A DNA stretch of 64,000 nt from a plasmid, in the sequence record NZ_LC532224.1; one strand, written 5' to 3'. The notes below the pieces were generated by a model, which was given only the letters and a program-made list of their open reading frames with translations, was not told the origin of the DNA and ran no database searches. The translations under genes and the position numbers were made by a program. Positions 23,236 through 35,962 of this stretch are shown piece by piece; the first letter of the stretch is position 1, and every line of letters begins with the position of its first letter.

Positions 23236-23406
23236 ATACACTACCTCAAATTTGAGAGGAAGTGCCCCAGAAGGGAAGCGACTTCCCCACTGGGTTAGAT
23301 AAAAGTTTGGTTAAGCTAAAAGAAGATGCCAGCGACAGATTTTACATTGTCATAGACAAGTGTCTTCAGCCAACCAAAGTTACTTTTTTGGACTGAAGCA
23401 AAAGGA

Positions 23407-24345
23407 TCATTGAGACGCGTTACGAAAATCGTCAAAAGCTTCAGTTATTAGTAATGTGCGATCAGTTACTCTGTATCGGTCATTACTTTCGAGAGATACG
23501 TAAGTTGAATGCGAAGAATCACAGACAACACGCCCTCTTTTATTGATCAATCTTACTTCCATCATCACCGGCACATTGATAATTGAAGCAACATCGGTAT
23601 AGAGGGATATGAGGGCATCATTGTCACAATATAACGCCCCGTTCCCATCAAATGTATCGTTAAACTTAATATATATATCTGGCATATTTGCCGGATAATC
23701 ATCAGTATTGAAATCAATGCATAACTTTAAGTCATCATTAATACGGCGATTAATCTTATGCTGCCCAACACGTACAAAGCCATGTTCAACAGCTTTGATA
23801 ATCCTTAAAGTTTCATTAAGACAATCTGTAATTCTTTTCTCGACAAATGAGATAAAGTCACCAAAGTCGGAATGAAAAAACTGTTTAAGTGCAAATTTCG
23901 CAACTAACACTTTCCCATCCACCTTCATTTTATCGAGATAAAGATTTCTTATAGCATCAGTAGAAGAATTAGCTTTAGATAACTCTTCACAGTCATTAAT
24001 AATCATTGAAACAATATCAATAACTTTAACTGGGCTTAAAGTATTACTATATCCGCGAATATCAAACGTAAAAAATCCGAAATTCTTAAATACTCCAAGA
24101 AAATAAATTATTTTTTGTTTCAAAAGAATAGAATCGGAGTAAGATGCGTTGTGCTTTATTAGTTCAGATATGTAGAGATCCAACATACAATTTAAATTAT
24201 CGATATCTACATCGTAATCAAAGGTTACTTTGTCGAACGAAGTATCAGATAATTGAACGGTTATATCGTCAGCGGGAACATTAAGGCCTAAATTTTGATA
24301 AAGAAAGGCACTAACAAATTCCACGTGGTCAGATTCTTTAAACAT
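23407..24345 (-). CDS. paralog-family protein B
   Basis: 312 aa; aligns with 22279 product (VDGKVLVAKFALKQF vs VDGQVMIARFALQQF); SD GAGG 8 nt upstream. Confidence 0.55.
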   Translation of the reverse strand: MFKESDHVEFVSAFLYQNLGLNVPADDITVQLSDTSFDKVTFDYDVDIDNLNCMLDLYISELIKHNASYSDSILLKQKIIYFLGVFKNFGFFTFDIRGYSNTLSPVKVIDIVSMIINDCEELSKANSSTDAIRNLYLDKMKVDGKVLVAKFALKQFFHSDFGDFISFVEKRITDCLNETLRIIKAVEHGFVRVGQHKINRRINDDLKLCIDFNTDDYPANMPDIYIKFNDTFDGNGALYCDNDALISLYTDVASIINVPVMMEVRLINKRGRVVCDSSHSTYVSLESNDRYRVTDRTLLITEAFDDFRNASQ

Positions 24346-24361
24346 TTACACTACCTCATGA

Positions 24362-24411
24362 CTAAAAAGGAAGTGCTTCCCACCGGGAAGCAAGTTCCCG
24401 GATGGGTTAGA
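24362..24411 (-). repeat. intergenic hairpin pair
   Basis: GGAAGTGCTTCC + CCCACCGGGAAGCAAGTTCCCGGATGGG; sense strand reads stop, ATCTAACCCA box, hairpins, T5, GAGGTAGTGTAAATG. Confidence 0.65.
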
Positions 24412-25332
24412 TTAATTATAAAAGAGTTCTTCAGAAGGTACATGCATTTCTGGTTTGAACTGTTTTAAGGAGTTGTTTATAGCTTTTCGATATAACCCTG
24501 AAGAGTGTGGCTTAAACATTTGATATTCCGTAACGAGCAGAGGAGACGTAAAGCATCCTAAGTTCACTAGTGAAATATTTGATGTTTCTTCACAAACATC
24601 TAATTCAGCGTATATCCGCCTCTTCATTACCCTGCCTGCTAAATAGCGACGAACATGATTTATAAACTTGTCCGCATCTGATATAGAATTAACTATATAA
24701 TCAGATGTGACTATCTGATTAGATACAGTTTCAGGTATAGCTTCGGCTATTATTTTTACGTTCATTTCATAATCAACACTATGGAAGCAAGCAAGAATTT
24801 GTGGCTTCGCGCTTTCTAAAATCTTTTCAAGAACAGAAAAAATCAGAGAGAACTCGTTTAAAATTCGCTTTTGTATAAGTCCATGTAGATGTTTTATGAA
24901 AGGAGAACCGTGTTCAACAAGGCCTAGTATAAGATCCTTAGAGGCCAAATCTGAGCGGTAATAAACGTATTCTAGATTATCCCGGTTAAATCCTTTGATA
25001 AGCAAATCAGGCTGCTCTGAGACCAGTCGTAAATGAGTTGAAGCTATAGAAACTTCAAAACGAAAGTTCGCGAGATTTACAGGGCCTGCTTTTAATGTAG
25101 CCGCTTCGGAAAAATAAATGAAAAGAGGATGCAAATCATCGTTACCACAGTAAAGATGGTCTGCGCCCTTAAGATATTTCACCAAATGAGGTAGAAAAGA
25201 TATTACTGGAATATCAGCCACAAATCGAATATGCCGAAATGGTTTTGAATCCAAATATATATTTTCCACTACAGCGCCAACAAAACCCATTTTAACAAGA
25301 ATAGATTCAACTAACTTTTGTATCGCATTCAT
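24412..25332 (-). CDS. paralog-family protein C (more distant)
   Basis: 306 aa; same size class and organisation; SD AGAGGG. Confidence 0.5.
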   Translation of the reverse strand: MNAIQKLVESILVKMGFVGAVVENIYLDSKPFRHIRFVADIPVISFLPHLVKYLKGADHLYCGNDDLHPLFIYFSEAATLKAGPVNLANFRFEVSIASTHLRLVSEQPDLLIKGFNRDNLEYVYYRSDLASKDLILGLVEHGSPFIKHLHGLIQKRILNEFSLIFSVLEKILESAKPQILACFHSVDYEMNVKIIAEAIPETVSNQIVTSDYIVNSISDADKFINHVRRYLAGRVMKRRIYAELDVCEETSNISLVNLGCFTSPLLVTEYQMFKPHSSGLYRKAINNSLKQFKPEMHVPSEELFYN

Positions 25333-25339
25333 TTAAATA

Positions 25340-25379
25340 CCCTCTTAATAGAGGGATTTCTCCCAAAGGGAGAAATCCC
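25340..25379 (-). repeat. intergenic hairpin element (CCCTCT-TAAT-AGAGGG plus GGGATTTCTCCC-AAA-GGGAGAAATCCC)
   Basis: 12-bp perfect stem; SD of downstream gene lies in the smaller stem. Confidence 0.7.
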
Positions 25380-25400
25380 TATGGGAGAAAATAATTTTAA

Positions 25401-26337
25401 TTAATAATTGTAGCGAAGCGCATGTTCTTTTTCACTAAGATGGTTTTCATATTCCGACTTACCAGAACTTAAACACTCTTTGAAAAAGACCTTTGAAAAA
25501 TTCTTCAAGTCACTTCGGTTGTTAATTTCTTTGTCAGACATCAACTTAGCTGAGTGTGAGGTATCCACAGGCCCCAACCACCATTCATATTTAATATAAA
25601 CACAATTGGTTTTTGTATGTCCATTTAGAAATCGTTTTGCATTTCTAAGTATTTTTCTACAACCGTTAAGGTCTGAAAGTAAGATATCTGGAGCAATGAG
25701 CTCTTCCAGAATATGACCAGGTAAGCCTTTCCTAAAAAGCTCAACATCGTAACTACAATACCAGTCACGATAATTAAAAGCTTTAATAAGTCTTTCAGGT
25801 GTATCCAAAGATATCTTATTCAGGATTTTTAATGCAAAGCATACAGCATCTTTTAACAACTCGTGCACCTCAACATTGATAAATGAGAAAAACGAGCTTA
25901 ATTCTTTCTCTAAGGAATTATACAACTTACCGTAAATATCCTGAGAAAAAAGATACTGCAATCTTTCTTTATTATAAGTGCAATTCGAAATTGAATAGAC
26001 TTCTCCTCTTTCGATTTTGCACCCTTCCCTTAAAACTATAGGAAACCTCAAATGGTTAACAATGAAAGAATGATTCTTTCTTTGCTTCAAAGCATCTAAT
26101 TGAAATTTCGTAATTTCCTCCAGATTTGCATCTTCAAAACCTGGAAAGGGAATATCACAGAAACAAGAACTATATGCTTTTGCTGATTCATACATAAACT
26201 CCAGTGAAACATCAGCATCAAAAGACATACCAGAGAACATGCCCTGCCCATTGTCTAAAAATGTAATGTTTTTAACCTGTATTTTTTTATGTTGAACAAC
26301 CAAAAAGGCATTAATGATTTTTTCGATAATTTTCATG
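25401..26337 (-). CDS. paralog-family protein D (more distant)
   Basis: start reassigned to ATG 26337 (MKIIEK) with SD GAGAGG; the longer ORF-track start reads through the intergenic hairpins. Confidence 0.5.
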
Positions 26338-26351
26338 TGATCCTCTCTCAA

Positions 26352-26395
26352 TAAAAAAGGGATCACTCCCATATGGGGTGTGATCCCCACATGGG
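26352..26395 (-). repeat. intergenic hairpin pair
   Basis: A6, GGGATCACTCCC, ATATG, GGGGTGTGATCCCC, CCCACATGGG. Confidence 0.65.
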
Positions 26396-26405
26396 TATAA
26401 TTTAA

Positions 26406-27284
26406 TTAAAAATCTGTAAGACCTAAATCTTTATTTCTACCACAAACTGTAGAAGATATAAGACGTTTTACTCGCTTTCGAGCACTTCGGCCTGACGTAT
26501 CTTTCAAGTACATCGGTAATGACAATGATGAGATTTGATTACTTCGCTTATGATGGCAGACTATATAGCCCTGCCTCCACCCCGAACGCACAAACTCACG
26601 GATGCGGTTAATATATGCCGAAGCTTGAGATTTTGTACTTATCGATTCAGAACACTTTAAGTTCTGTTCGATAGAGTAAAGCTCAGCCGCCATTAATTTC
26701 ACCTCATACAGGTCATCCCCATAACTTATAGTTTTCAACAGCTCTTCCTTTTCCCGAATGAAAAATACTTGCTGCATTCCAAGGATCAGGTCATAGGCCT
26801 CTCGAAAGAGGTCGATAAGCTTATTACGAACATAAATCATAAACTCCTCAAAGTGCTGAAGCCAGAAATAAGCCGCATTACTTATTTGTGAATTGTGAGA
26901 ACAAACAAGCCCTTTAGCAAGCTCGACCTCTTCCTCCCGAAAAGTAAAGTTACTTTTCTTAAACCGACTTTGTTCAAAAATGCTTTGATGCATTTCTATC
27001 CATACAGAAACAAAACCGAGGGATTCAAATTCTTCGTTTAACAAATGTAAACTTTCGAAGATTTTCTGAATTTCGATCCCGATGTCATATGACAGTGGAC
27101 ATTCTTTTATAGAATAAACATAACCGGGTAGGAAGTGAGATAAATGCTCAGTTCGCAAATATAAACTGAATTTAAGTTCTGTCAGTGGTTGTTTCAAAGA
27201 TAATTTAGATGATTCGCTTATATTTACTGGTTCAACACCATTTCTAATCAAAATAGCTTTTACCAGGTCCGTAGCTAACTTCAT
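26406..27284 (-). CDS. paralog-family protein E (more distant)
   Basis: 292 aa; SD GGAGG. Confidence 0.5.
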   Translation of the reverse strand: MKLATDLVKAILIRNGVEPVNISESSKLSLKQPLTELKFSLYLRTEHLSHFLPGYVYSIKECPLSYDIGIEIQKIFESLHLLNEEFESLGFVSVWIEMHQSIFEQSRFKKSNFTFREEEVELAKGLVCSHNSQISNAAYFWLQHFEEFMIYVRNKLIDLFREAYDLILGMQQVFFIREKEELLKTISYGDDLYEVKLMAAELYSIEQNLKCSESISTKSQASAYINRIREFVRSGWRQGYIVCHHKRSNQISSLSLPMYLKDTSGRSARKRVKRLISSTVCGRNKDLGLTDF

Positions 27285-27362
27285 ACAGCCTCCAGTCGTT
27301 ATTGAGGCCTCCCTGATGCAGGTTGGCCATCAGGGAAAATATGTAAATCAATTAGCAACCAA

Positions 27363-27884
27363 TCAGACCGTTGCCATTACATTGTCAATGTATCTGACAA
27401 GGGATGGGCGGTCGTCCTGTAAGGCAAAACGGCGAAGGTCATCAAGATTATACGCAGGAAGATAATCAGCGTAACCTCGAATACGAAGGTCCTCAACCAC
27501 AACTTTTATATACTCAAATCGTCCAAGATTTCCTTTTAATGGGGGTTTTCCTGGACTAGACAGCATATCGTCTGCTTGCTCCCATGTGATTTCTTTAGCT
27601 TCACCACTATGTAGATCAAGATGGACATATATGAATGACTTATAATCTCCACGGCAACGAAGATAATATTTCGGATAGAAATATTTGTCACAACGCAACA
27701 AACACGTTCCTGAAGGACGAACTACGTACAACAGGTTTCTGTCATTTTCTAATATGCCATGTTTCAAAATCGTTATATCTATCTCATTATCATGCAGCAA
27801 ATAGCATGACGATGGTTCATTGACGATGCGCGATTTTATAACAGCAGCAAATTTATTAAAAACTTCGTTAGTTTGAAAATTCAT
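27363..27884 (-). CDS. hypothetical protein
   Basis: 173 aa; SD GGAGAG; preceded (in its sense) by 270-nt spacer with palindrome. Confidence 0.45.
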   Translation of the reverse strand: MNFQTNEVFNKFAAVIKSRIVNEPSSCYLLHDNEIDITILKHGILENDRNLLYVVRPSGTCLLRCDKYFYPKYYLRCRGDYKSFIYVHLDLHSGEAKEITWEQADDMLSSPGKPPLKGNLGRFEYIKVVVEDLRIRGYADYLPAYNLDDLRRFALQDDRPSLVRYIDNVMATV

Positions 27885-28077
27885 TAAAATGCTCTCCGAT
27901 GTAAAACGACGAGCATCACCATAACGGTAATACTCCCGTTATGGGTTTTAATAGTTTATGGAATAACCATGTCATACAACCGACCATAGCCAGTAGTACC
28001 GCACATTTATTTAACTGAGCAAGCATCTCAGCCGTGAAAAGACCTTAAAGGCAGGTAATTATCACGAAGGAAAGCGG

Positions 28078-28120
28078 TTATCTTATCAATACAATTTAAA
28101 AAATAATATTGATAAGATAA
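28078..28120. repeat. perfect 14-bp inverted repeat TTATCTTATCAATA / TATTGATAAGATAA with 15-nt AT spacer
   Basis: read directly; immediately followed by GC hairpin CCCCCGCAAAATGCGGGGG (28124-28142) at the primase 3' end. Confidence 0.8.
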
Positions 28121-28153
28121 CCCCCCCCGCAAAATGCGGGGGAGTTATCGTTG

Positions 28154-29386
28154 TTACAGCTGATTAAGACATTCAGGAGCCCAGTGAATCGGGAATCCAT
28201 CCTGCCCTGTTAACTGGAGAACATCGTTCCAGTCGATACCCTTTTTCCCATCAGGAATATCTTGTGCTGGTTCGAAGACTTCAATTGTCAGCTTTGATGC
28301 GGGATATCGTTTAGCCAAAAACTCAACCATGCGGCTTTGAAGTCGCTGAGCAGCTTCGATACCGGCACGAGTGCCTTGTGAGTTAGCAATATCCTTATCC
28401 GCCCAGATATAAAAGTTTATATATTTTACATCCGGCGGAGGCAGTAAAAAATCAGGAACAGTAACGTTTTCAAGGCACCATGCGGAGCTGGCTGCCCAGC
28501 ATGGTGTTGAAGTCGCTTCTACAACAGAAAGCGCATTCTCGATCCCTTCAGCCACTCCCAGTGTCCAGGTCGAACTACCTGAATCATAGTGAGGGTCAAA
28601 CAACTGAATTGAGCCACCTGTCATATCGGCAGGAGGCTTCATCATCAGCTTTGGATTTTCTACAGGTGCCTTATCACCGTTTTTGTCTACGTATGTTCTA
28701 TGGATAGTCAGAGGCCGACCTCGGGTGTCACGATAGATTGCAATCATTCCCGGATAGATAATCGATTTCTGCTTATCTTTATCCCAATAGTAGATCCGGT
28801 TATTAAAGCCTAAATCCTTTGGTAAGTGACTCAGTAAGCGGGAGATCCCACGATTACGGAGGTACAAAGCAACAGGAGTATTAGGCTTTATTTCACCGGT
28901 ATAGTGATACATCACATCAAGTTTTCGCATTCGCTTTGCCACTTCCTCTCGGTCAAGAGTTTCTGTGGCACGAACTGCTGATTTATAGCGTCGTTCATTT
29001 TCAATGTCGGCGTCAGTTAACGGAGCATGCAGATCCATCCCGAAAAAATCTGAGAGAATCTTTTTGCAAGTCTGCGTTTTACTTAATTCATAATATTTCG
29101 CCAGAACATCAATTCCGTCGCAAAACTCATTTACCGGAAAGTCATTATGGATCGCACATCCGGTATAAAGGTCTTTTTGCCGGAAACGAAACTTCGATTT
29201 CCCTGCGCCAGTAAACGGGCAAGGAACCTGGCTCGGGGCTTTTGCACAAGCGTCTTTGAAAGCAGGTATTCTTTCGAATATATACTTCCAGCCAGACACT
29301 TCAGCAATTCGAGCATGAACGAGTTTAATAAAGTGTTCAGATACTTCCTGTGGTTTACGACGAAGAGCCGGGGATGCATAAGTCAT
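28154..29386 (-). CDS. Toprim-domain DNA primase-like protein with degenerate N-terminal zinc-ribbon region
   Basis: CPFTGAGKSKFRF resembles primase zinc-binding motif with missing Cys; downstream Toprim-like E...YIWADKD; start at MTYASPAL with SD AAGAGAG. Confidence 0.5.
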   Translation of the reverse strand: MTYASPALRRKPQEVSEHFIKLVHARIAEVSGWKYIFERIPAFKDACAKAPSQVPCPFTGAGKSKFRFRQKDLYTGCAIHNDFPVNEFCDGIDVLAKYYELSKTQTCKKILSDFFGMDLHAPLTDADIENERRYKSAVRATETLDREEVAKRMRKLDVMYHYTGEIKPNTPVALYLRNRGISRLLSHLPKDLGFNNRIYYWDKDKQKSIIYPGMIAIYRDTRGRPLTIHRTYVDKNGDKAPVENPKLMMKPPADMTGGSIQLFDPHYDSGSSTWTLGVAEGIENALSVVEATSTPCWAASSAWCLENVTVPDFLLPPPDVKYINFYIWADKDIANSQGTRAGIEAAQRLQSRMVEFLAKRYPASKLTIEVFEPAQDIPDGKKGIDWNDVLQLTGQDGFPIHWAPECLNQL

Positions 29387-29499
29387 GATGATCTCTCTTA
29401 TCTGGCATTGTGAGTTTCTCAATGCCTTCTGCGGTGCAGAAGACAGGGAGAAACCCACAACGCAGAATTTAAGAAAGAGGGCCCGGGGGCCCTCAACAT

Positions 29500-29721: not shown

Positions 29722-29744
29722 ATTTTGCTCCTTATTCCTTCATG

Positions 29745-29790
29745 GAGCAAAAAGACCCACCGGGGCCTTTTTGCCCCGATTGGGTAGAGT
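29745..29790 (-). repeat. intergenic element with alternative folds
   Basis: GCAAAAAG..CTTTTTGC competes with ACCCA-CC-GGGGC-CTTTTT-GCCCC-GAT-TGGGT. Confidence 0.6.
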
Positions 29791-29793
29791 TTA

Positions 29794-31800
29794 TTAAGAA
29801 AGTATTTGATGAACTAGCTTACTGACTTCAATAGACAATAAAGAAGTATCATCAACTGTTACGAAAGTGTCCGTTTCAAAACCAATTATTTCATCAGTCT
29901 TAATACCAACACCAACGATTTCTATTCCATTACATTTAGCCTTTTCCATAACTTCGACGATAGTAAATTCCGATTTATTCGGATAACCATCAGTTATAAG
30001 AAAAATTATTTTCCTATCGAATTGGCTGTCAAGTAACAGATCAACAGCTGCCATTAAAGCAGATCCCGTAGGGGTATAATAACCCTTACATCCAAGAGTG
30101 AATTTCGATAGAGATTCCTCAACGCTTTGATCAAACGTTTTGATAATCTCAAATTCACTTTCCTTGAAGGGAAAAACTATATTGGAGACATGCATTTTTG
30201 ACAAACTTTCAGCGGCCATCGATAAAGCAAGATCTGACTTAATGGCATGAATATATCTTTCATCATTAGCCATTGACGCTGAAATATCACGAACTAATAC
30301 GAGGCCAACATGCCCTCTATTTTTAGATTCGCTTTGAGCTCTGAAGACATCACGAACTCCCATTTGTGACAGAATTAATCGATTTCCATCGAAGGTAATT
30401 CCACGCTCATGAGTTTTGTTTCGGCCACGCATTTTAACCTGCTGTAAAACAGACAAGTCGCTACCGATTGAATGACTCAGAGACAAAGCCTCATTGTAAA
30501 CATTCAAATCGATAAGGAGATCAGGGATATCCCATTCAGAAGCACCGAATTCGGCTTTCACGTCATCGGATACTTTTGATGCAATACCTTCAATCTCTTT
30601 AGCCAAAGCATCGTGATAATCTTCGCTATCCTCATCACTGCTAAGAAAGGCATCCAACAAATCTGCCAGTATCTCCCATTGAGCCGATGAAAAGTTACTT
30701 TCATCTTCAACGTTAGTCGAACTGGCTTCATCTGATTCACTCTCGGAAGGGTTAATCGCATCAGTATCGTCTTCAATAATGTTATCACCCGTGGGATTGC
30801 CACCGGTGGGTTCATTATTTCCCTCGTTATCTTCAGCAAGTTCTGAAGGCTCAGAACATCCCTCTTGAGCAAGATCAGCGTTATCGGAAGTATCTGCCTG
30901 ACCTTCACTATCGTCCTCAGAATCATCCTCACGACTATCAGTCGACGTAAGCGATTTATCTTCTGATTCGGTATCGGTATCGGTCTCGGATTCATCATAT
31001 GCCTCCTGCTCCTCCTGCTCTGTCTGCTGCTGTTGTTCCTTTGCCTCATCCCGCAGTCTCTCTAAAAGAGCCAGGGTCTTACGAGCAAGGGATTCACAGC
31101 CCTGAGTATTTTCACAACCAAGAGCATCATGAAAAATTTCCTCAACATCAGAAATTACTGGAGAAAGTATCTTTTGGGCATAGTCAAAAAACGGATCGAG
31201 GGTTTCTTTGTGACCTACCTGCTGAAGGACTTTTACTCGCAATGAGTTAAGCAGATACCACTCAATAAATAGGACAGGATTTTCCGGACGAGAAGATATA
31301 TCAGGAGTCATCCTTCCGGCTTTAACCATCAGTGCGTAAGTGGCTGCAAGCCGCCGCTTTGCATCCGGATAATCGTTACCAACCTTCTCTTCCATCTGTA
31401 CATCATCGAACAGATTTATAAGCCCGGTAAGACGTTTTGCCCTGCTATAAGCTTTACGTTTCTCAGCGAGGCTCTCAAACTCTGCATTCATTCCGTCATC
31501 GAAGCGTGTAAACCCTTCAGATGACATGAGAACACTATTAAAGGCGTCACTGTAAACCTCACTGACGGTATAGCGACCATGACCAGCTTCATGACAGGTA
31601 AAACCTTCAATCAGACTGACAAAGTCATCATCGCTATAATCGCCGTTTGGTAAAACACAAACTTTATTGACAGGATCAAAATACGGTCCTTTGGTATTGT
31701 CGTCTATTACAACTCTTACATCGCCTAAGCCGCTAATGACTTTTGCTATATTCTGTAAACGCTTAATATGGCGCGGCGATGATTTAAGATCTAATTTCAT
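29794..31800 (-). CDS. CobT-like protein: HExxH-containing N-domain, long acidic tract, C-terminal vWA domain
   Basis: 668 aa; CHEAGHGRY; about 150 aa D/E/S/T-rich; C-terminal vWA (LVLVRDISASM ... FLITDGYPN). Confidence 0.6.
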   Translation of the reverse strand: MKLDLKSSPRHIKRLQNIAKVISGLGDVRVVIDDNTKGPYFDPVNKVCVLPNGDYSDDDFVSLIEGFTCHEAGHGRYTVSEVYSDAFNSVLMSSEGFTRFDDGMNAEFESLAEKRKAYSRAKRLTGLINLFDDVQMEEKVGNDYPDAKRRLAATYALMVKAGRMTPDISSRPENPVLFIEWYLLNSLRVKVLQQVGHKETLDPFFDYAQKILSPVISDVEEIFHDALGCENTQGCESLARKTLALLERLRDEAKEQQQQTEQEEQEAYDESETDTDTESEDKSLTSTDSREDDSEDDSEGQADTSDNADLAQEGCSEPSELAEDNEGNNEPTGGNPTGDNIIEDDTDAINPSESESDEASSTNVEDESNFSSAQWEILADLLDAFLSSDEDSEDYHDALAKEIEGIASKVSDDVKAEFGASEWDIPDLLIDLNVYNEALSLSHSIGSDLSVLQQVKMRGRNKTHERGITFDGNRLILSQMGVRDVFRAQSESKNRGHVGLVLVRDISASMANDERYIHAIKSDLALSMAAESLSKMHVSNIVFPFKESEFEIIKTFDQSVEESLSKFTLGCKGYYTPTGSALMAAVDLLLDSQFDRKIIFLITDGYPNKSEFTIVEVMEKAKCNGIEIVGVGIKTDEIIGFETDTFVTVDDTSLLSIEVSKLVHQILS

Positions 31801-31814
31801 AGAATACCTCTTTA

Positions 31815-31863
31815 TAAAAAAGGGGTACTCACCCAGATGGTGAAGTACCCATCTGGGGTTTTT
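31815..31863 (-). repeat. A6-hairpin-T5 element with two mutually exclusive stems
   Basis: AAAAAA GGGGTAC..GTACCC versus CCCAGATGG..CCATCTGGG, then TTTTT; bidirectional terminator-like. Confidence 0.65.
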
Positions 31864-31877
31864 AATAAAGCAAACAG

Positions 31878-33005
31878 TTACCAGCCTTTGAGCTCGATAT
31901 CAAAACCATTTTCAGCATTGTCTTCCTGTTGCGAAACTGATTTCTCAGGTTCAGCTACAGAATCAGTGTTTGAAAACGTGCTGTTTTTTATATCGTTCTC
32001 TACGACAGGTTCAACCTGAAACACATTTGTTGAATCTAAAATAGCTTCAATACCTGTGTTCTGTAGCGCGTTCGGTTCTGTTTGTGAGCTTTGATTAAAT
32101 GATCTGGTAATAGATTCCAACCAGTCAGTAACCTTTTGCTCTCCTGAAATAATACGCTTTAACATTGAAGCATCACTCATGAAATAAAACCACTGCTGTA
32201 ACACCGCAACGTCGCGAGGTTCAGAAATGGCACCTTTAGGTAAATTATTCATTATGTGTTTTATAGCTTCTGCAAGTACTGCCGCCTCTTTATGTATAAA
32301 CATGAAGCTAATGATCTTATTTTGCATTTGCTTCAGTCGGTCAATAGTACTTGAGCGCAAATTATTATTTTTACTAATTTTTTCATAAACCCTCATTGCT
32401 TCTTCTGCCAGATCTGTTATCAATTGTTCCTGATAGTAGTCCTGGGTTTCATCACCTTCAACGCTAATAGGCGTAAAAGGAATAAAGTGAGCAATATTAA
32501 ATCTAAAGGATTTTATGAAATCATCTTTAGTTAATTTCAACTGATCAATCAAAGAAGACATTCTTGGGCTTCTATTTTTTTCAGCCTCAATATGCATCTC
32601 ATAATTGTCTACAACGTTTTGAATACCTGCCTGAAACTCTCGTTCAATCTCTTGGGCCCCTTCCAGAAACTCTTCCATACTGGAAACTGGTAAAATCCAC
32701 ATATTGCTATAGCGGATGCACAAGCGTGAGCAAAGGGTTGATATTCTGCTGGTAATCGTACTTTTGAAGCTAAGGGCTTTTATGTCAATCCAACGTACTT
32801 CGCTTTTAGATACGCTTTTTTGATCCGTAATATCATCTCCATCATAAGACAAATCGATTTTATCGGTTCGACGCGATCCTTGACAGCCACTTATTTCAAT
32901 TTTTGTTATAACTGCACCTTCCAGTAAATCTGGATATGATTTTGCAAAATTCTCAGAGATTTGTTTTGCAGATACTTTGTTAAGCATTGAAGTATTTAAA
33001 GTCAT
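31878..33005 (-). CDS. hypothetical protein
   Basis: 375 aa from ATG 33005 (SD GGAG); ORF-track start 33017 is non-ATG. Confidence 0.45.
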   Translation of the reverse strand: MTLNTSMLNKVSAKQISENFAKSYPDLLEGAVITKIEISGCQGSRRTDKIDLSYDGDDITDQKSVSKSEVRWIDIKALSFKSTITSRISTLCSRLCIRYSNMWILPVSSMEEFLEGAQEIEREFQAGIQNVVDNYEMHIEAEKNRSPRMSSLIDQLKLTKDDFIKSFRFNIAHFIPFTPISVEGDETQDYYQEQLITDLAEEAMRVYEKISKNNNLRSSTIDRLKQMQNKIISFMFIHKEAAVLAEAIKHIMNNLPKGAISEPRDVAVLQQWFYFMSDASMLKRIISGEQKVTDWLESITRSFNQSSQTEPNALQNTGIEAILDSTNVFQVEPVVENDIKNSTFSNTDSVAEPEKSVSQQEDNAENGFDIELKGW

Positions 33006-33373
33006 GGGTTTCTCCAAAAAAAAGGGGAAACCCTCCCCAACGGGAAAGATTTCCCGATAGGGTTGATATTAAAGCTTCTCTGGTGCAATTAAAAGAATAC
33101 CGGGAAACTCAGCGGCAACATCATCATTGCCCATTGCTCCCTGATACATATAACCTTTTAATTCCATTTCTTTAATTAGACCTTCCATATTTATTTTACC
33201 ATCATGATAAAACAATAAAGAATAGTCGTTATTCAGTTGCATAAGTCCAGTAAAATTAGTTCCGTTTTTTGCTATAGCAATGGTAGCAGCACCATCCGTA
33301 CTTAAAAACGCACTAAATTCAAGATGGGATAACTCTGAGATACAAATATCAGAGGTTTCATAACAAATCCCAT

Positions 33374-34432
33374 CTAACTCGACTTTTTTGCTGTGAAATA
33401 CTCCAGCGATTTATCCTTGTCTTCGCCAAGAGAAAGATCTATAGCTTGAAGAACAAGATCGACCACATGTAAAGGTAAAGCAGAAGCAAAAGCTATTTTG
33501 AAAGTGTCAAGAAGACTAAAGGTTTTTAACGTCATCGACGTGCCAACCCAAGCTACTAATTGACGAATATCCATCACACTGTCTTCTGTACCAGAGTCAT
33601 TTACTGCAATCGCTACTCTTACGAACTTCTCAATGACCTGAAAAGGCAAAGAGCTATATCGTTTAGTAAGCACATTGGTTAAAGCAACTTTGTCGGGCTT
33701 CTCCATTTCAACTATCAAGAACCGCTTTATAAAAGCTGCATCTTGACGTTGAGAAGAAACGAACCGGCGAGCGCCTCCACTCATGTTTGTGTTTGCAGTA
33801 CCAATAAATCGCGTGTAGCCATTAGCAGTTATAACCTCACCACCATTAGCACTGAGTGACCAGGGCTTACGTTCAATGGGCATGTGAAGTTTTGCTGCCG
33901 TATCAGGATCGATTTTGTCCACTTCATCCAGAAGAATGAGGTGACCATTACGAAATCCCGTTACCAAATCGCTGTGTACAAAACCTGTATTACCACCATT
34001 AAGACTGCGCTCACCTTCAAGCTCATCAACTCGAATATTGCTGTTGATCTGCTTAATTGTCAGCGGCCAATTCATCATGTGGCTAATGTACATTACCATT
34101 TCAGTCTTGCCAGAACCGGACTCACCTTTAAGACACACACTTAAATCTATATCCGGACTGATAAGCAGTTTAACCACTTGTTCAAGTATTCGGGGATTTG
34201 GTATGTAGTCTTTGTTCAGCGGAGCTCGATACGAGGTTTTAGTTTTGAAAACAGGCACAGCCATCTTTGGATCCATTTCTGGAATACCAAAAAGGTCCTT
34301 TGCTAGAACTAAAAGATACTCACCTTTATCCACATAATGTTTTAACTTTATAACATCCGGGGAAAGAAGAGCTTCTAATTTTTCATAAGCATCAGAAGAT
34401 GTTTCATTTAACTTCATAGCGGCATTAGACAT
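33374..34432 (-). CDS. AAA+ ATPase, MoxR/CobS-like
   Basis: Walker A GESGSGKT, Walker B LILLDEVD, AAA_5-like layout. Confidence 0.7.
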   Translation of the reverse strand: MSNAAMKLNETSSDAYEKLEALLSPDVIKLKHYVDKGEYLLVLAKDLFGIPEMDPKMAVPVFKTKTSYRAPLNKDYIPNPRILEQVVKLLISPDIDLSVCLKGESGSGKTEMVMYISHMMNWPLTIKQINSNIRVDELEGERSLNGGNTGFVHSDLVTGFRNGHLILLDEVDKIDPDTAAKLHMPIERKPWSLSANGGEVITANGYTRFIGTANTNMSGGARRFVSSQRQDAAFIKRFLIVEMEKPDKVALTNVLTKRYSSLPFQVIEKFVRVAIAVNDSGTEDSVMDIRQLVAWVGTSMTLKTFSLLDTFKIAFASALPLHVVDLVLQAIDLSLGEDKDKSLEYFTAKKSS

Positions 34433-34489
34433 TTTTAACTCCGGTAAAATGCAAACACCGCCCTCTGGCAGATGTTTGCCAGTGGCATT

Positions 34490-35467
34490 TTATTTGAGAT
34501 TCATTTGGCAAATAGTTGCCATCAGTTTCCTGATTTGAGGCACATTATAACCAAGATGATTTCCCACTATTTCAAAAGCTTCAGACATGATCCATTCAAA
34601 ATGATTTTCGAATATTGGATTTATTTCTAACTTGCCAAAAGCGTTTCGTTTAGTTAACAGATCACATGAAACAAGCTCGTCAAACAACTCTAATGTGGAT
34701 TTAAAAGCTTTTATGTAAACATCCATAATTTCCCTGTCAGTCCATTTAACAGCCAGTTTTTTTTCTGACATTAAATAATCCTGATCAAAGAAGATGTCCC
34801 AGCCCATATCGTCATTGCAATCATGCAAAATGATTTCATCATCATTCCTGCATTCAGCTAATTTCGTGTTTTCACTAATCGAACGATGCGAATGATAATA
34901 GAGCCATGATTTTAATTCCGCTCTAAATTCACATGCATCAAGTCCATGAGATAAACAAGTGTATTCAAATGATTTTGACATATACCACCGTGTTTCAGCT
35001 TCTAAAAGTGGATTCACTGTGATATTACCATTGTCATCTTTGAAGAATAACTTTCTCCTCAACACTAGTTCTTTAATGATTTCCAAAGACTCTTCCATAG
35101 CGGATAGAAAAACAACATACACATCCTCAGGGGTCCATTCTATTACCAGACCACCCAAATCTGGGTTATATTCTTCAACCGAATATAGATAATCTGTTTC
35201 TGCTGCAAAATTAATTGTATGCAAAATCTGATTTTTAAGTAATTTGGATTTTTCATAAAGGTGATTTTCACGCCTTTCAGAATCATAATTTATCTCAGAA
35301 ATGTTACTTTCATCTGATTTAAAGTTTAATCCGGACGTGTATGCATCATTTAAATGCTCTTTGGGTGAATCAACTATTTGCGTTATTTCATCTTCATCTA
35401 TATCGAATATAGAAAAAAAACTAAGTTGATTACTACTTATTGCAGTAGCCCTAAATTTTTGTTTCAT
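34490..35467 (-). CDS. hypothetical protein
   Basis: 325-aa ORF; SD GGAG. Confidence 0.45.
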   Translation of the reverse strand: MKQKFRATAISSNQLSFFSIFDIDEDEITQIVDSPKEHLNDAYTSGLNFKSDESNISEINYDSERRENHLYEKSKLLKNQILHTINFAAETDYLYSVEEYNPDLGGLVIEWTPEDVYVVFLSAMEESLEIIKELVLRRKLFFKDDNGNITVNPLLEAETRWYMSKSFEYTCLSHGLDACEFRAELKSWLYYHSHRSISENTKLAECRNDDEIILHDCNDDMGWDIFFDQDYLMSEKKLAVKWTDREIMDVYIKAFKSTLELFDELVSCDLLTKRNAFGKLEINPIFENHFEWIMSEAFEIVGNHLGYNVPQIRKLMATICQMNLK

Positions 35468-35479
35468 GGGGACTCCAAA

Positions 35480-35509
35480 AGGAGAAATCCCATGAAGGGA
35501 TTTCTCCCC
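35480..35509 (-). repeat. intergenic hairpin sharing the GGGATTTCTCC / GGAGAAATCCC arms with the 25353 element
   Basis: GGAGAAATCCC-ATGAA-GGGATTTCTCCCC, then T-run, SD GGAG, ATG. Confidence 0.7.
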
Positions 35510-35527
35510 TTTAGGGTGGGTTTAATG

Positions 35528-35905
35528 TCAGATCTGATTAAAGCTACTTTGTCCAAAACCTTTTAGAGGTTTAGGTATGTGAGCCAACTTACTTGTTGCT
35601 ACCACTCTCATGTAGTCAAGAGGATGTTCTCTCCCTTCAATCATAATAGTATCGACAACAATATAACCGGAGACCATCAACTCATCACCCTGATTTATAC
35701 CAGTGAAACAGGTTGAATACATTTCAGGCGACACCTTGATTTGAACTGAAAATTCTCTCTCAGTGATTTCACCATCAACTTCTGTCTTCATCCTATTTTT
35801 GAGCTTTATTAACAAACCTATACTCTGGTCAGTCATTTTTTTCTCCACAGCACTGATAACTATCCCGGACACTTTTACTTCATTGATATATTCAAGATAT
35901 GACAT
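35528..35905 (-). CDS. possible OB-fold ssDNA-binding (SSB/PriB-like) protein
   Basis: 125 aa; beta-rich pattern VKVSGIVIS...FSVQIKV...GDELMVSGYIV resembling SSB/PriB OB fold; weak. Confidence 0.3.
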   Translation of the reverse strand: MSYLEYINEVKVSGIVISAVEKKMTDQSIGLLIKLKNRMKTEVDGEITEREFSVQIKVSPEMYSTCFTGINQGDELMVSGYIVVDTIMIEGREHPLDYMRVVATSKLAHIPKPLKGFGQSSFNQI

Positions 35906-35962
35906 TTTCCGCTCCTCGATTTGTTCAAAGAGAAGCCCCGTTAGGGTTCCCCCTTAACAGGA

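What the first reader, a model, noticed from the sequence alone, without database searches (positions are those of the whole stretch)
23242..35962. Family of structured GC-hairpin elements in nearly every intergenic spacer, with a conserved ACCCA-N2-4-GGG box and SD-containing stems
On the coding (minus) strand almost every spacer reads the same way. It starts with the stop codon and an AT-rich run. Next comes a conserved box, as in ATCTAACCCAGTGGGG, ATCTAACCCATCCGGG, TCTACCCAATCGGGG, ATCAACCCTATCGGG, TATACCCATGTGGGG and AAAACCCCAGATGGG. One or two GC-rich hairpins follow, with arms of the type GGGAA/TTCCC or GGGA..TCCC. The spacer ends in a T-run, an SD, 5-8 nt and the ATG. Two spacers even share the identical 15-nt leader GAGGTAGTGTA(A/T)ATG. 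In several spacers the SD or anti-SD-like CTTCC/CCTC sits inside a stem, for example CCCTCT-TAAT-AGAGGG and CCTCTCAAATTTGAGG. Hairpin plus U-run resembles intrinsic terminators, yet there is no room for promoters. The elements could therefore be attenuators, processing sites, translational thermosensors or a plasmid-specific repeat family. The thermosensor idea is relevant because IncHI transfer is temperature sensitive. This regular punctuation is not explained by the gene calls.
Basis: seen in the sequence. Interest (0 to 1): 0.7.

Follow-up and report, generated by a model that had tools for sequence, protein, structure and literature searches.

The report
RBS-locking RNA switches between plasmid genes
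Almost every gap between genes in one conserved operon of IncHI resistance plasmids encodes a two-hairpin mRNA element that hides the next gene's ribosome-binding site and carries its own built-in "key", so that each gene is probably translated only when the gene before it is being translated.

Summary
The window is IncHI2 plasmid backbone. The region is a long minus-strand operon downstream of trhI.

In 11-12 of its 14 spacers the mRNA folds into two adjacent hairpins. H1 is a clamp with outer stem CCCA/UGGG and inner stem GGGnn/nnCCC. H2 pairs the Shine-Dalgarno/start region with an anti-SD strand.
- 10 of 13 spacers fold with z <= -4.
- The H1 motif occurs 7 times in the window against about 0.2 sites expected, and 7 of its 9 sites in the whole 311-kb plasmid lie in this operon.
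- The same anatomy, with different sequences, recurs in ten IncHI-like lineages down to 38% protein identity.

New result: the 5' arm plus loop of H1 copies the ribosome-binding-site strand. The anti-SD can therefore pair with either partner. This is specific to cognate pairs (-10.4 vs -6.2 kcal/mol, p = 0.0004).

Masking the first 5-7 nt of H1 cuts the predicted cost of opening the ribosome-binding site from 9.3 to 5.2 kcal/mol.

Best reading: serial anti-SD/anti-anti-SD switches, most likely triggered by the ribosome finishing the upstream gene. The switch is shown; the trigger is inferred.

The thermosensor, dispersed-repeat and obligate-terminator readings are not supported.

The parts
35937..35961 (-). 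Module 1 (before the 125-aa gene): clamp hairpin H1, CCTGTTAAGGGGGAACCCTAACGGG. It starts 1 nt after the upstream stop codon.
   Evidence: Minimum-free-energy fold, (z = -4.0).
35911..35936 (-). Module 1: hairpin H2. The anti-SD strand GCUUCUC pairs with GAGGAGC, the SD.
   Evidence: Seven anti-SD nt are shared between the two states.
35472..35517 (-). Module 2 (before the 325-aa gene), a variant: long hairpin GGAGAAAUCCC/GGGAUUUCUCC. The ACCC segment, 7-10 nt after the stop, pairs directly with the SD GGAGU.
   Evidence: (z = -2.4). The regex hit is at 35489-35516.
34462..34485 (-). Module 3 (before the AAA_5/CobS-like gene): H1 variant CCACUGGCA...UGCCAGAGG. Its loop GCAAACAUC is complementary to GGUGUUUGC downstream.
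   Evidence: GCAAACA/UGUUUGC is present in every lineage printed.
34419..34461 (-). Module 3: H2. It sequesters the start codon and the first codons of the gene.
33035..33062 (-). Module 5 (before the DUF3150 gene): H1, CCCUAUCGGGAAAUCUUUCCCGUUGGGG.
   Evidence: (z = -4.4).
33006..33033 (-). Module 5: H2, GGGUUUCCCC-U8-GGAGAAACCC. The SD and the bases up to the AUG are paired.
   Evidence: State B is a 14-bp hairpin followed by U8.
31832..31857 (-). Module 6 (before the VWA/CobT-like gene): H1, CCCAGAUGG-GUACUUCA-CCAUCUGGG. The loop carries the ribosome-binding-site mimic GGUACU.
   Evidence: z = -4.6; 94% of cells paired, 3 covarying pairs in this helix.
31802..31830 (-). Module 6: H2, GAGUACCCCUUU/AAAGAGGUAUUC.
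   Evidence: 6 pairs with changes on both sides. State B is 95.9% paired in 10 lineages.
29755..29785 (-). Module 7 (before the 73-aa gene): H1, ACCCAAUCGGGGCAAAAAGGCCCCGGUGGGU. The mimic is GGGGCAAAA.
   Evidence: (z = -5.5).
29723..29752 (-). Module 7: H2, UUUUGCUCC/GGAGCAAAA.
   Evidence: 94% paired; RNAalifold recovers H2.
29392..29494 (-). Spacer before the primase (Toprim) gene: a small GC hairpin at 29477-29494 and a different, 87-nt near-perfect hairpin at 29392-29478. This is not a standard module.
   Evidence: z = -9.2. The hairpin is conserved in all lineages.
27919..27944 (-). Module 9 (before the 173-aa gene): H1, CCAUAACGGGAGUAUUACCGUUAUGG. It lies 209 nt after the primase stop codon, downstream of a strong terminator.
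   Evidence: (z = -5.3).
27888..27917 (-). Module 9: H2, GAUGCUC.../...GAGAGCAUU.
   Evidence: 10 shared anti-SD nt; X and X'' identical at 9 of 10.
27310..27336 (-). Module 10 (before the 292-aa gene): H1, CCCUGAUGG...CAUCAGGG. The three-way complementarity is weak here.
   Evidence: z = -1.75.
27287..27309 (-). Module 10: H2, GGCCUC/GAGGCU.
26368..26395 (-). Module 11 (before the 311-aa gene): H1, CCCAUGUGGGGAUCACACCCCAUAUGGG. The mimic is GGGGAUCAC.
   Evidence: (z = -6.6). The IncHI1 orthologue has AUUAC in all three strands.
26337..26366 (-). Module 11: H2, GUGAUCCCUUUU/GAGAGAGGAUCAC, ending at the AUG.
   Evidence: opening cost 12.8 falls to 3.7 kcal/mol when s1 is masked.
25357..25390 (-). 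Module 12 (before the 306-aa gene): H1, UUUCUCCCAUAGGGAUUUCUCCCUUUGGGAGAAA.
   Evidence: (z = -5.0).
25341..25354 (-). Module 12: H2, CCUCUAUUAAGAGG (SD in the stem).
24379..24406 (-). Module 13 (before the 312-aa gene): H1, CCCAUCCGGGAACUUGCUUCCCGGUGGG. It starts 5 nt after the stop codon.
   Evidence: (z = -4.45).
24348..24376 (-). Module 13: H2, GCACUUCCUU/GAGGUAGUGU.
   Evidence: (mask of 15 nt gives state B, SD 75% unpaired).
23265..23294 (-). Module 14 (before the 318-aa gene): H1, CCCAGUGGGGAAGUCGCUUCCCUUCUGGGG. It lies about 112 nt after the upstream stop codon.
   Evidence: (z = -6.0).
23239..23264 (-). Module 14: H2, CACUUCCUC/GAGGUAGUG.
28122..28144 (-). Terminator-like hairpin CUCCCCCGCAUUUUGCGGGGGGG after the primase gene. 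It splits the region into two transcription units (context, not a module).
   Evidence: conserved in other lineages.
22223..22239 (-). Terminator-like hairpin GGCACGGUUUCCGUGCC followed by U8, after the last module-bearing gene (context).

Best explanation
Each spacer encodes a three-strand mRNA switch built from six alternating C-rich and G-rich segments: s1 (CCCA), s2 (GGGnn), s3 (nnCCC), s4 (UGGG), s5 (anti-SD) and s6 (SD/start).

Ground state A:
- s1:s4 and s2:s3 form the clamp hairpin H1.
- s5:s6 form hairpin H2, which hides the ribosome-binding site.
- Segment s2 plus the H1 loop is a near copy of the ribosome-binding-site strand (an anti-anti-SD) and is locked inside H1.

Switching:
- If s1 is held single-stranded, the register shifts by one segment.
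- s3 pairs with s4 and s2 pairs with s5, giving one long hairpin (state B) that captures the anti-SD and leaves the ribosome-binding site free. The site is then often preceded by a U-rich single strand.

Proposed trigger: the most plausible agent holding s1 is the ribosome finishing the upstream gene, especially while the RNA is still being made, because H1 begins a median of 9 nt after the stop codon. The operon would then be a chain of translational couplers. Each gene would be translated only on mRNAs whose preceding gene is being translated, across spacers of 50-80 nt that are too long and too structured for simple re-initiation.

Status of each step:
- Shown: the structures, their conservation, sense-strand specificity, cognate three-way complementarity, and the thermodynamic linkage between s1 and the ribosome-binding site.
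- Inferred: that the ribosome is the trigger, and that the output is translation of the downstream gene.
For: Structure is real:
- z <= -4 in 10 of 13 spacers.
- The motif occurs at 7 sites, against a shuffle mean of 0.42 counting both strands (observed 14), all in the spacers.

It acts as RNA on the sense strand:
- The sense fold is 4.3 kcal/mol more stable than the antisense fold in 45 of 57 modules (Wilcoxon p = 3.5e-8).
- 124 of 1433 pairs are G.U.

The ribosome-binding site is sequestered:
- It is paired in 130 of 131 spacers across 10 lineages.
- Median opening cost is 9.6 kcal/mol vs 5.15 for other genes of the window, p = 0.0008.

Conservation with covariation down to 38% protein identity:
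- State A is 90.7% paired with 9 doubly changed pairs in one alignment, and 85.9% paired with 6 in the other. 0 of 500 shuffles reach the covariation score in either.

The alternative pairing is specific:
- Duplex energy between the cognate H1 5' half and the anti-SD is -10.4 vs -6.2 kcal/mol for non-cognate pairs (window p = 0.0004; pooled p = 0.0002).
- 49 of 57 modules share at least 4 anti-SD nt between the two states (median 8).
- X and X'' are identical at 82% of 397 shared positions, and 192 of those X positions sit in the H1 loop, where nothing else constrains them.
- State B is 96% and 85% paired across lineages, against 35-70% in slid controls.

Thermodynamic linkage:
- Masking 5-7 nt of s1 lowers the opening cost from 9.3 to 5.2 kcal/mol.
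- The coupling energy is 4.15 kcal/mol for cognate modules vs 2.10 for chimeras with a foreign H1 (p = 3e-6).

Kinetics (findpath estimates):
- The barrier from A to B is about 24 kcal/mol, so state A needs an active opener.
- The barrier from B to A is about 11 kcal/mol, so state B would be long-lived.

Position:
- H1 starts <= 9 nt after the stop codon in 22 of 39 short-spacer modules.
- In module 2 the segment near the stop codon pairs with the SD directly.
Against: - In 12 of 39 modules H1 starts >= 12 nt after the stop codon. The spacer before the VWA gene has 8-20 nt in every lineage, beyond the reach of a terminating ribosome.
- Modules 9 and 14 lie more than 100 nt from the upstream stop. 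They may sit in 5' UTRs of internal transcripts with no upstream ORF. The only candidate is a possible leader ORF in module 9.
- With s1 masked, opening the ribosome-binding site still costs about 5 kcal/mol, so the flip is not complete at equilibrium.
- Within orthologous alignments state B is mostly invariant, with 1-2 covarying pairs. Its support comes mainly from comparison between modules.
- Modules 10 and 12 show weak three-way complementarity.
- All energies are nearest-neighbour predictions. There are no expression, probing or end-mapping data.
Confidence: 0.45

Rival explanations
1. The elements are static punctuation. H1 is an intercistronic stabiliser or insulator that blocks exonucleases, or blocks sliding and re-initiating ribosomes. 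H2 is a fixed brake that sets a low translation rate for each gene. The complementarity between the mimic and the anti-SD is a folding aid or a by-product.
For: - State A is 12.7 kcal/mol more stable than state B, and the spontaneous barrier from A to B is about 24 kcal/mol.
- A distantly related syntenic operon in Aeromonas plasmid pAeme5 has a quite different intergenic hairpin family, tandem C(UUCG)G mini-hairpins with no anti-SD. This suggests that plain hairpin punctuation is useful in such operons.
- The variable distance from stop codon to H1 fits this reading.
Against: - It does not explain why the H1 loop and 5' arm copy the private ribosome-binding-site sequence of each module. X and X'' are 82% identical at 397 positions, half of them in loops, and cognate pairs are favoured over non-cognate at p = 0.0002.
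- It does not explain why that relation is kept while the sequences diverge between lineages.
Confidence: 0.2
2. The same switch is operated by a trans-acting factor instead of the upstream ribosome. Candidates are an RNA-binding protein, helicase or cold-shock chaperone, host or plasmid encoded, that binds the AU-rich tract plus the CCCA strand, or that stabilises H1. All genes of the operon would then be switched together.
For: - This covers modules that lie far from any stop codon (modules 9 and 14, and the spacer before the VWA gene).
- The only features common to all modules are the AU-rich tract, the CCCA/UGGG clamp and the GGG/CCC inner stem.
- The operon encodes many proteins of unknown function.
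Against: - The alternating C/G segment pattern is already explained by the register-shift design anchored on a G-rich SD, so no extra recognition motif is needed.
- The internal loops and hairpin loops of H1 are not conserved between modules.
- No RNA-binding domain was found in the operon proteins by Pfam or PHROGs.
Confidence: 0.12
3. The elements are transcription attenuators or leaky intrinsic terminators. State B, or the s4:s5 hairpin, followed by a U-tract terminates transcription. H1 acts as the antiterminator. The result is graded polarity along the operon.
For: - The terminator scan lists 33055-33025, 33038-33024, 29780-29759 and 24392-24374 as hairpin plus T-run, and finds 26 sites vs 13.2 expected in the region.
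- At least 5 T in the 8 nt after the state-B hairpin occurs in 5 of 8 window modules and 22 of 56 overall.
Against: - The U-tract is absent from most modules of the more distant lineages at the same junctions, whereas SD sequestration is near universal.
- H1 itself is followed by H2 after 0-2 nt.
- In state A the U-run is the loop or 5' arm of H2.
- The logic would terminate exactly the transcripts that are well translated.
Confidence: 0.12
4. The elements are RNA thermometers linked to temperature-sensitive IncHI transfer.
For: - The SD is in a stem in every module.
- The predicted opening cost falls with temperature.
- R27 non-tra genes are reported to be more expressed at 37 C (PMC7366339, transcript level).
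Against: - The predicted opening cost is still 8.4 kcal/mol at 42 C and 6.8 at 50 C, far above what melts in the physiological range.
- The direction is opposite to transfer being permissive at 25 C.
- Rfam gives no ROSE or FourU match.
- A thermometer does not need H1 or the mimic.
Confidence: 0.05
5. The elements are a dispersed or mobile DNA repeat (REP/BIME- or MITE-like), or a DNA-level cruciform or protein-binding site.
For: They are palindromic, GC-rich, intergenic, and present in many copies.
Against: - They are confined to one operon of a 311-kb plasmid.
- They always have the same orientation relative to the genes.
- Copies share architecture, not sequence.
- G.U pairs make the sense RNA 4.3 kcal/mol more stable than the antisense.
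- Each copy is tied to the start codon of the next gene.
- A viral-contig pattern scan found only scattered singletons in coding DNA.
Confidence: 0.03

Closest known systems
Translational attenuation leaders (ermC, cat)
   Same: A chain of mutually exclusive helices in which the last helix hides the SD. A ribosome sitting on the 5'-most segment shifts the pairing register and frees the SD. (Own knowledge; the analogy between the RNA unfolding model and attenuation is drawn in PMC12548453.)
   Different: - There is no short leader peptide and no drug-dependent stalling; the upstream element is a full-length gene and its stop codon.
- There are 10 or more copies in series in one operon.
- The 5' segment lies after the stop codon, not inside the ORF.
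Translational coupling by RNA unfolding (rpmI-rplT at +52 nt, MS2 coat-lysis, f1 genes VII-IX, atpHA)
   Same: [quoted passage not shown] This also works at spacings where re-initiation is unlikely (PMC12548453).
   Different: In those cases the inhibitory helix includes sequence that the upstream ribosome actually traverses. Here both arms of the inhibitory hairpin lie at least 35 nt beyond the stop codon. The signal would have to be relayed through a clamp hairpin that carries a ribosome-binding-site mimic.
Riboswitch expression platforms with anti-SD and anti-anti-SD strands (e.g. thiM TPP)
   Same: The same three-strand logic of SD, anti-SD and anti-anti-SD, with the anti-anti-SD locked in an upstream structure (terminology as used in PMC2018614).
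   Different: H1 is 24-34 nt long and differs in sequence between modules, so it cannot be a common ligand pocket. Rfam has no match.
repY/repZ (IncI-alpha, IncB) pseudoknot-dependent coupling
   Same: It is plasmid-borne. The loop of an upstream hairpin is complementary to sequence at the structure that hides the downstream ribosome-binding site, and translation of the upstream ORF is required (summarised in PMC8053102; mechanistic details from own knowledge of Asano and Mizobuchi 1998).
   Different: - There it is a single locus for replication control, with an antisense RNA competitor and a true pseudoknot that leaves the upstream hairpin intact.
- Here the gap of 0-2 nt after an 11-bp stem makes a pseudoknot sterically implausible (inference), so H1 must partly melt.
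- No antisense RNA is evident here.
Intercistronic C(UUCG)G hairpins of phage T4 mRNAs
   Same: Very stable small hairpins that punctuate the gaps between genes of a mobile element (own knowledge, Tuerk et al. 1988). A family of this type is seen in the syntenic Aeromonas operon.
   Different: Those are single tetraloop hairpins without SD pairing and without alternative pairings.

Membership tests
Intrinsic (Rho-independent) terminator | GC-rich hairpin immediately followed by a U-tract | tested here: not met
   H1 is followed by H2 after 0-2 nt. Only the alternative state-B hairpin has a U-rich tail, in 22 of 56 modules, and this is not conserved between lineages.
Intrinsic (Rho-independent) terminator | Produces RNA 3' ends in vivo | not testable with these tools
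   This needs Term-seq or Northern blots.
RNA thermometer (ROSE, FourU type) | SD/start paired in a hairpin | tested here: met
RNA thermometer (ROSE, FourU type) | The hairpin is marginally stable and melts between about 30 and 42 C | tested here: not met
   The predicted opening cost is 10.9 kcal/mol at 30 C, 9.5 at 37 C and 8.4 at 42 C. This is a prediction only.
RNA thermometer (ROSE, FourU type) | Match to curated models | tested here: not met
   No Rfam hit at gathering score or at E <= 5.
REP/BIME/ERIC/MITE-like dispersed repeats | Many copies dispersed over unrelated intergenic loci of the replicon | tested here: not met
   7 of 9 motif sites in the 311-kb plasmid lie within 12 kb of one operon.
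REP/BIME/ERIC/MITE-like dispersed repeats | Copies share a sequence consensus and occur in both orientations | tested here: not met
   The cores of the modules differ (GGUACUC, GGGGCAAAA, GGGGAUCAC and others). All copies are co-oriented with the genes.
Translational attenuator (ermC type) | Alternative, mutually exclusive helices, the last one holding the SD | tested here: met
Translational attenuator (ermC type) | Short leader ORF whose ribosome occupies the first segment | tested here: not met
   The upstream ORFs are full-length genes, and s1 lies after the stop codon. A possible 29-36-codon leader ORF exists only in the spacer before the 173-aa gene.
Translational coupling by RNA unfolding | Downstream ribosome-binding site silenced by secondary structure | tested here: met
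Translational coupling by RNA unfolding | The inhibitory structure includes, or is destabilised by, sequence covered by the upstream ribosome | tested here: inconclusive
   - The arms of H2 are out of reach of the upstream ribosome.
- H1 starts <= 9 nt after the stop codon in 22 of 39 modules and >= 12 nt in 12 of 39.
- Masking s1 lowers the opening cost by about 4 kcal/mol.
Translational coupling by RNA unfolding | Downstream translation depends on upstream translation | not testable with these tools
   This needs reporter fusions with premature stop codons.
Riboswitch | Conserved ligand-binding aptamer upstream of the expression platform | tested here: not met
   H1 is 24-34 nt long and variable in sequence between modules. 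No Rfam family matches.

The most novel reading that the evidence does not exclude
A conjugative-plasmid operon is wired as a domino chain of ten or more ribosome-actuated RNA relays. Each spacer carries a clamp hairpin that hides a private copy of the next ribosome-binding site. The ribosome finishing gene n releases that copy during co-transcriptional folding. The copy captures the anti-SD, and gene n+1 is opened for a limited time. This would be a natural, modular, long-distance form of translational coupling, conserved across the IncHI1, IncHI2 and IncHI1B/FIB backbones.
Probability: 0.35. Interest if true: 0.8.

Novelty: new variant of a known kind. Interest (0 to 1): 0.66.

Why it matters
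- Test bed for translational coupling. A 2025 review states that the mechanism of translational coupling is still not firmly established (PMC12548453). These modules are small (about 60 nt), come in many natural sequence variants with one architecture, and separate the stop codon from the ribosome-binding site by 50-80 nt. They therefore offer a clean natural system to test the RNA-unfolding model against re-initiation, with built-in compensatory variants.
- Clinical relevance. They sit in the conserved backbone of IncHI plasmids, which carry multidrug resistance in Salmonella Typhi and mcr-9 or carbapenemase genes in Enterobacter and Salmonella. This operon (CobS-like ATPase, DUF3150, CobT-like VWA protein, primase, and a set of unknown genes) has no assigned function. 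Tight all-or-none control hints that its expression is costly or must follow an order.
- Design value. The element is a compact natural template for programmable coupling devices in synthetic operons.

Tried and rejected
- Rfam at gathering scores on the whole window, and at E <= 5 on 22000-37500: no meaningful hit. The best relevant match was 23 bits to the ssNA-helicase RNA family on one H1, well below its threshold.
- Thermometer test by folding at 15-70 C: no melting in the physiological range.
- Simple 5' masking by fixed distance from the stop codon: a clean switch appeared only in some spacers and only for a narrow mask range. This led to the segment-based analysis.
- Whole-plasmid scan for the clamp motif: the family is operon-specific.
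- Pattern scan of IMG/VR viral contigs for a 17-base clamp pattern: 120 scattered single hits, mostly in coding or GC-rich DNA, and no clustered intergenic family.
- Genome-contig scan with a DUF3150 alignment: only 4 loci, all already-known lineages.
- H-type pseudoknot between the H1 loop and the anti-SD with H1 intact: rejected on geometry, because an 11-bp stem is followed by a 0-2 nt linker (inference, not computed).
- CsrA sites: the GGA motifs lie in stems, and several mimics lack GGA, so this was rejected.
- RNase III site: the helices are too short and interrupted (inference).
- Literature searches for IncHI intergenic stem-loops, DUF3150, anti-anti-SD and R27 transcript organisation found no description of these elements.
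- BLASTP among the roughly 300-aa downstream genes: only the 312-aa and 318-aa proteins are clearly paralogous. Tandem duplication therefore explains at most some of the modules.

Full report
**Context**

The window is IncHI2 plasmid backbone. Bases 23000-36000 are 100% identical to more than a thousand plasmids of Enterobacter, Salmonella, Escherichia and Klebsiella. One of these, NZ_CP026661.1, is typed IncHI2A.

The finding lies in a long minus-strand gene array that starts after the transfer helicase gene trhI (37230-39014). Its genes, in order, are:
- genes of 290, 125 and 325 aa;
- an AAA_5 (CobS-like) ATPase;
- a small ORF;
- a DUF3150 protein;
- a VWA (CobT-like) protein;
- a 73-aa protein;
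- a Toprim primase;
- a strong terminator-like hairpin at 28122-28144;
- a 173-aa gene and five genes of about 300 aa;
- a terminator-like hairpin at 22223-22239.

Comparison with IncHI1 and with the RefSeq annotation moved four ORF starts, to 23235, 26336, 29386 and 33005.

Yes.
- The short box ACCC-N2-5-GGG is only mildly enriched in the window as a whole (26 vs 14.6 +/- 5.3). However, 10 of its 15 minus-strand occurrences fall in the 14 spacers, which make up 2.1% of the window (p = 5e-14).
- The box is half of a larger motif, CCC-N-GGG-N-CCC-N-GGG. This occurs at 7 sites in 64 kb, all in these spacers. Counting both strands, that is 14 observed against a shuffle mean of 0.42.
- In the complete 311-kb plasmid the motif has 9 sites. 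Seven are in this operon and two are in GC-rich sil genes.
- Ten of 13 spacers fold with z <= -4, and none of 200 dinucleotide shuffles folds as well.

**Anatomy**

Read as mRNA, a typical spacer of 52-77 nt has the following parts in order:
- the stop codon;
- an AU-rich tract;
- hairpin H1, with outer stem CCCA/UGGG, a small internal loop, inner stem GGGnn/nnCCC and a 4-8 nt loop;
- a gap of 0-2 nt;
- hairpin H2, whose 3' arm is the Shine-Dalgarno sequence and the bases up to, or including, the start codon.

Supporting measurements:
- The ribosome-binding site (positions -16 to +3) is paired with an upstream partner in the minimum-free-energy fold of 130 of 131 spacers from ten lineages.
- The predicted cost of opening it is higher than for the other 43 genes of the same window (median 9.6 vs 5.15 kcal/mol, p = 0.0008).
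- G.U pairs make the sense-strand fold 4.3 kcal/mol more stable than the antisense fold, in 45 of 57 modules (p = 3.5e-8). The element therefore acts as RNA on the coding strand, not as duplex DNA.

**Relatives**

The operon, in the same gene order, was recovered from nine other lineages. DUF3150 protein identity to the window is:
- 93% (L014);
- 79% (IncHI1, L001);
- 78% (L002);
- 68%, 66% and 55% (L009-L011);
- 45% (L013);
- 38-40% (Klebsiella IncHI1B/FIB-type plasmids, L003 and L004).

All have the H1-H2 arrangement at the same junctions, although the spacers are often no longer alignable by sequence. In the two junctions aligned with the tools:
- State A is 90.7% and 85.9% paired, with 9 and 6 pairs changed on both sides. 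No shuffle in 500 reaches the observed covariation score.
- RNAalifold recovers H2. For the H1 region it returns the two mini-hairpins s1:s2 and s3:s4, which illustrates that the four C/G segments are interchangeable partners.

**The new point: a built-in mimic of the ribosome-binding site**

The 5' arm plus loop of H1 (X) resembles the ribosome-binding-site strand of H2 (X''). The anti-SD strand (X') can therefore pair with either. Examples, written as X / X' / X'':
- GGGGAUCAC / GUGAUCCC / GGAUCAC-AUG (window 26337-26405);
- GGGGAUUAC / GUAAUCCC / GGAUUAC-AUG (the IncHI1 orthologue);
- GGGGCAAAA / UUUUGCUCC / GGAGCAAAA (29722-29793);
- GGUACUC / GAGUACC / GGUAUUC (31801-31877);
- GGGGAAUA / UAUUCCUC / GAGGAAUA (L013).

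Quantitatively:
- The duplex energy between a module's own H1 5' half and its own anti-SD is -10.4 kcal/mol, against -6.2 for non-cognate pairs in the window (permutation p = 0.0004). The same holds in L001, L002, L011 and L013, and the pooled p is 0.0002.
- In 49 of 57 modules at least 4 anti-SD nucleotides (median 8) pair with the ribosome-binding site in one state and with H1-internal bases in the other.
- X and X'' are identical at 82% of 397 such positions. 192 of the X positions lie in the H1 loop, where no other pairing constrains them.
- Across lineages the alternative helix is 95.9% and 84.8% paired, against 35-70% when the partner is slid by 1-3 columns. It is mostly invariant, however, with only 1-2 covarying pairs.

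**Linkage between the two ends of the element**

The spacer can be written as six alternating segments: s1 (C-rich), s2 (G), s3 (C), s4 (G), s5 (the anti-SD, C/U-rich) and s6 (the SD, G-rich).
- State A is s1:s4 + s2:s3 + s5:s6.
- If s1 is made unavailable, the best fold becomes one long hairpin, [s2 s3]:[s4 s5], with the ribosome-binding site free. This is state B.

Predicted effects:
- Masking the first 5-7 nt of H1 lowers the ensemble cost of opening the ribosome-binding site from 9.3 to 5.2 kcal/mol on average (57 modules; the reduction is at least 2 kcal/mol in 41 of them).
- The coupling energy is 4.15 kcal/mol in native modules and 2.10 in chimeras carrying the H1 of another module (p = 3e-6).
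- Path estimates give a barrier of about 24 kcal/mol from A to B. State A therefore never opens by itself.
- The barrier from B to A is about 11 kcal/mol. State B, once formed, would last much longer than a helix fluctuation.

These numbers are nearest-neighbour predictions, not measurements.

**Most likely mechanism**

The design has its output at the ribosome-binding site and its input at the 5'-most strand, a few nucleotides after the upstream stop codon. A generic agent that holds RNA single-stranded exactly there is the ribosome terminating the upstream gene.

The effect would be strongest on the nascent transcript. There, s1 would still be inside the ribosome while s2 to s5 emerge, so state B would form before the SD is made. 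The U-rich stretch between the anti-SD and the SD would then be a single-stranded landing site.

On this reading the operon is a chain of translational couplers working across 50-80 nt. Module 2 (35472-35517) is a simpler version in which the segment near the stop codon pairs with the SD directly.

Which steps are shown and which are inferred:
- Shown: structure, conservation, strand specificity, cognate three-way complementarity and thermodynamic linkage.
- Inferred: the ribosome as trigger, and translation as the output.

**Weak points**

- H1 begins <= 9 nt after the stop codon in 22 of 39 short-spacer modules, but >= 12 nt after it in 12. In the spacer before the VWA gene the distance is 8-20 nt in all lineages.
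- Modules 9 and 14 lie 209 and about 112 nt after the previous stop codon. Module 9 sits behind a strong terminator, so it may be in the 5' UTR of an internal transcript.
- A possible 29-36-codon leader ORF that reads through H1 and stops in the anti-SD exists there in three lineages, but not in IncHI1.
- With s1 masked the ribosome-binding site still costs about 5 kcal/mol to open.
- A trans-acting opener or a purely static role therefore cannot be excluded.

**Rivals**

- Thermometer. The opening cost is 12.0, 9.5 and 8.4 kcal/mol at 25, 37 and 42 C. Nothing melts in the physiological range, and the direction is opposite to cold-permissive transfer.
- Terminator or attenuator. H1 has no U-tail. 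State B has at least 5 U in the next 8 nt in 22 of 56 modules (5 of 8 in the window), but this is not conserved at orthologous junctions. Partial termination in IncHI2 remains possible.
- Dispersed repeat or DNA element. This is excluded by the operon-specific distribution, the single orientation, the G.U asymmetry and the module-specific sequences.
- Static stabilisers. These are plausible for H1 alone. They are also suggested by a different hairpin family in a distant syntenic operon of Aeromonas plasmid pAeme5. They do not explain the mimic.

**Comparison with what is known**

- The three-strand logic (SD, anti-SD, anti-anti-SD) is that of ermC-type translational attenuators and of riboswitch expression platforms.
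- The proposed biology is the 'RNA unfolding' model of translational coupling (review PMC12548453; rpmI-rplT at +52 nt is the nearest spacing).
- The use of an upstream hairpin loop to hold an RBS-hiding structure open recalls repY/repZ of IncI-alpha and IncB plasmids (PMC8053102).

It differs from all of these in three ways:
- Both arms of the inhibitory hairpin lie beyond the stop codon.
- The signal has to be relayed through a clamp that carries a private copy of the ribosome-binding site.
- The device is repeated at ten or more consecutive junctions and is conserved across the IncHI superfamily.

No Rfam family matches. Full-text searches found no description of these elements. I therefore rate it a new variant of a known kind.

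**Verdict**

The best explanation is serial translational-coupling switches. Confidence that the three-state element exists as described is about 0.85. [quoted passage not shown] Confidence that the upstream ribosome is the trigger is about 0.45.

Noticed in passing
window 1272, 15739, 19183, 23376, 26946, 30691, 37131, 37810, 43131, 44333, 46697, 47880 (11-bp sites): The palindrome AAAGTWACTTT occurs 12 times in the window against 0.25 expected (0 of 100 shuffles). It occurs 47 times in the whole 311-kb IncHI2 plasmid, and none fall in two long stretches (79,943-119,849 and 243,750-286,509) that hold most of the resistance and transposon genes. Sites lie in genes and in spacers alike. There are 4-9 sites per 21-28 kb in every IncHI-like lineage examined (L001-L004, L009, L011, L013), one apparently at the corresponding place inside the VWA gene, and none in the Aeromonas relative. 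It looks like a dispersed binding site for a backbone protein, comparable to a global operator of the KorB-OB kind. No paper in the library mentions it.
   Followed up: partly
window 29392-29478 (minus strand), spacer before the primase gene: An 87-nt near-perfect hairpin gives the whole 119-nt spacer an MFE of -62.7 kcal/mol (z = -9.2). It is conserved in all lineages, including the Klebsiella plasmids. Its 3' arm contains an alternative AUG that some annotations use as the primase start. It is a different kind of element from the H1-H2 modules.
   Followed up: no
L017 (Aeromonas media plasmid pAeme5, NZ_CP038449.1), spacers between 6516 and 18648: A distantly related syntenic operon (helicase, primase, AAA ATPase, DUF3150, VWA and further genes) has its own, different intergenic family. 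It consists of tandem C(UUCG)G tetraloop mini-hairpins, consensus AATCCTTCGGGATATGACGCCTTCGGGCA, just upstream of most SDs. None of them pairs with the SD.
   Followed up: partly
window 27885-28153 (minus strand): After the strong terminator-like hairpin at 28122-28144 comes a roughly 200-nt stretch conserved at the nucleotide level across lineages. It holds a possible hydrophobic leader ORF (MLAQLNKCAVLLAMVGCMTWLFHKLLKPITGVLPLW in the window). This ORF reads through H1 of module 9 and stops at a UGA in the anti-SD. It is present in the window, L014, L009 and L011, and ends before H1 in IncHI1.
   Followed up: partly
window 36836-37229 (minus strand), spacer between trhI and the first operon gene: This spacer has a terminator-like hairpin at 36972-36989. 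It is followed by a conserved promoter-like TATAAAT, an invariant CAGGCGGTT, and two AAGTWACTTT-type sites. This is probably the operon promoter and operator region, and it is conserved from IncHI2 to the Klebsiella plasmids.
   Followed up: no
window 22279-27284 (minus strand): Five consecutive genes of 292-318 aa have similar N-termini. Only the last two (312 and 318 aa) are clearly paralogous (27% identity, E = 4e-37). The 306-aa and 311-aa proteins are weakly collinear (E = 7e-5 in a database of only eight proteins). Tandem duplication may explain the identical leader GAGGTAGTGTA(A/T)ATG of modules 13 and 14.
   Followed up: partly
window 33069-33373 (minus strand): The small gene between the AAA ATPase and DUF3150 genes is 57 aa here, after a 131-nt spacer without a module. 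It is 78-95 aa in other lineages (89 aa with a 38-nt spacer in IncHI1). The IncHI2 copy seems truncated at its 5' end, and a 23-codon ORF overlaps the upstream stop codon (TAGATG).
   Followed up: no
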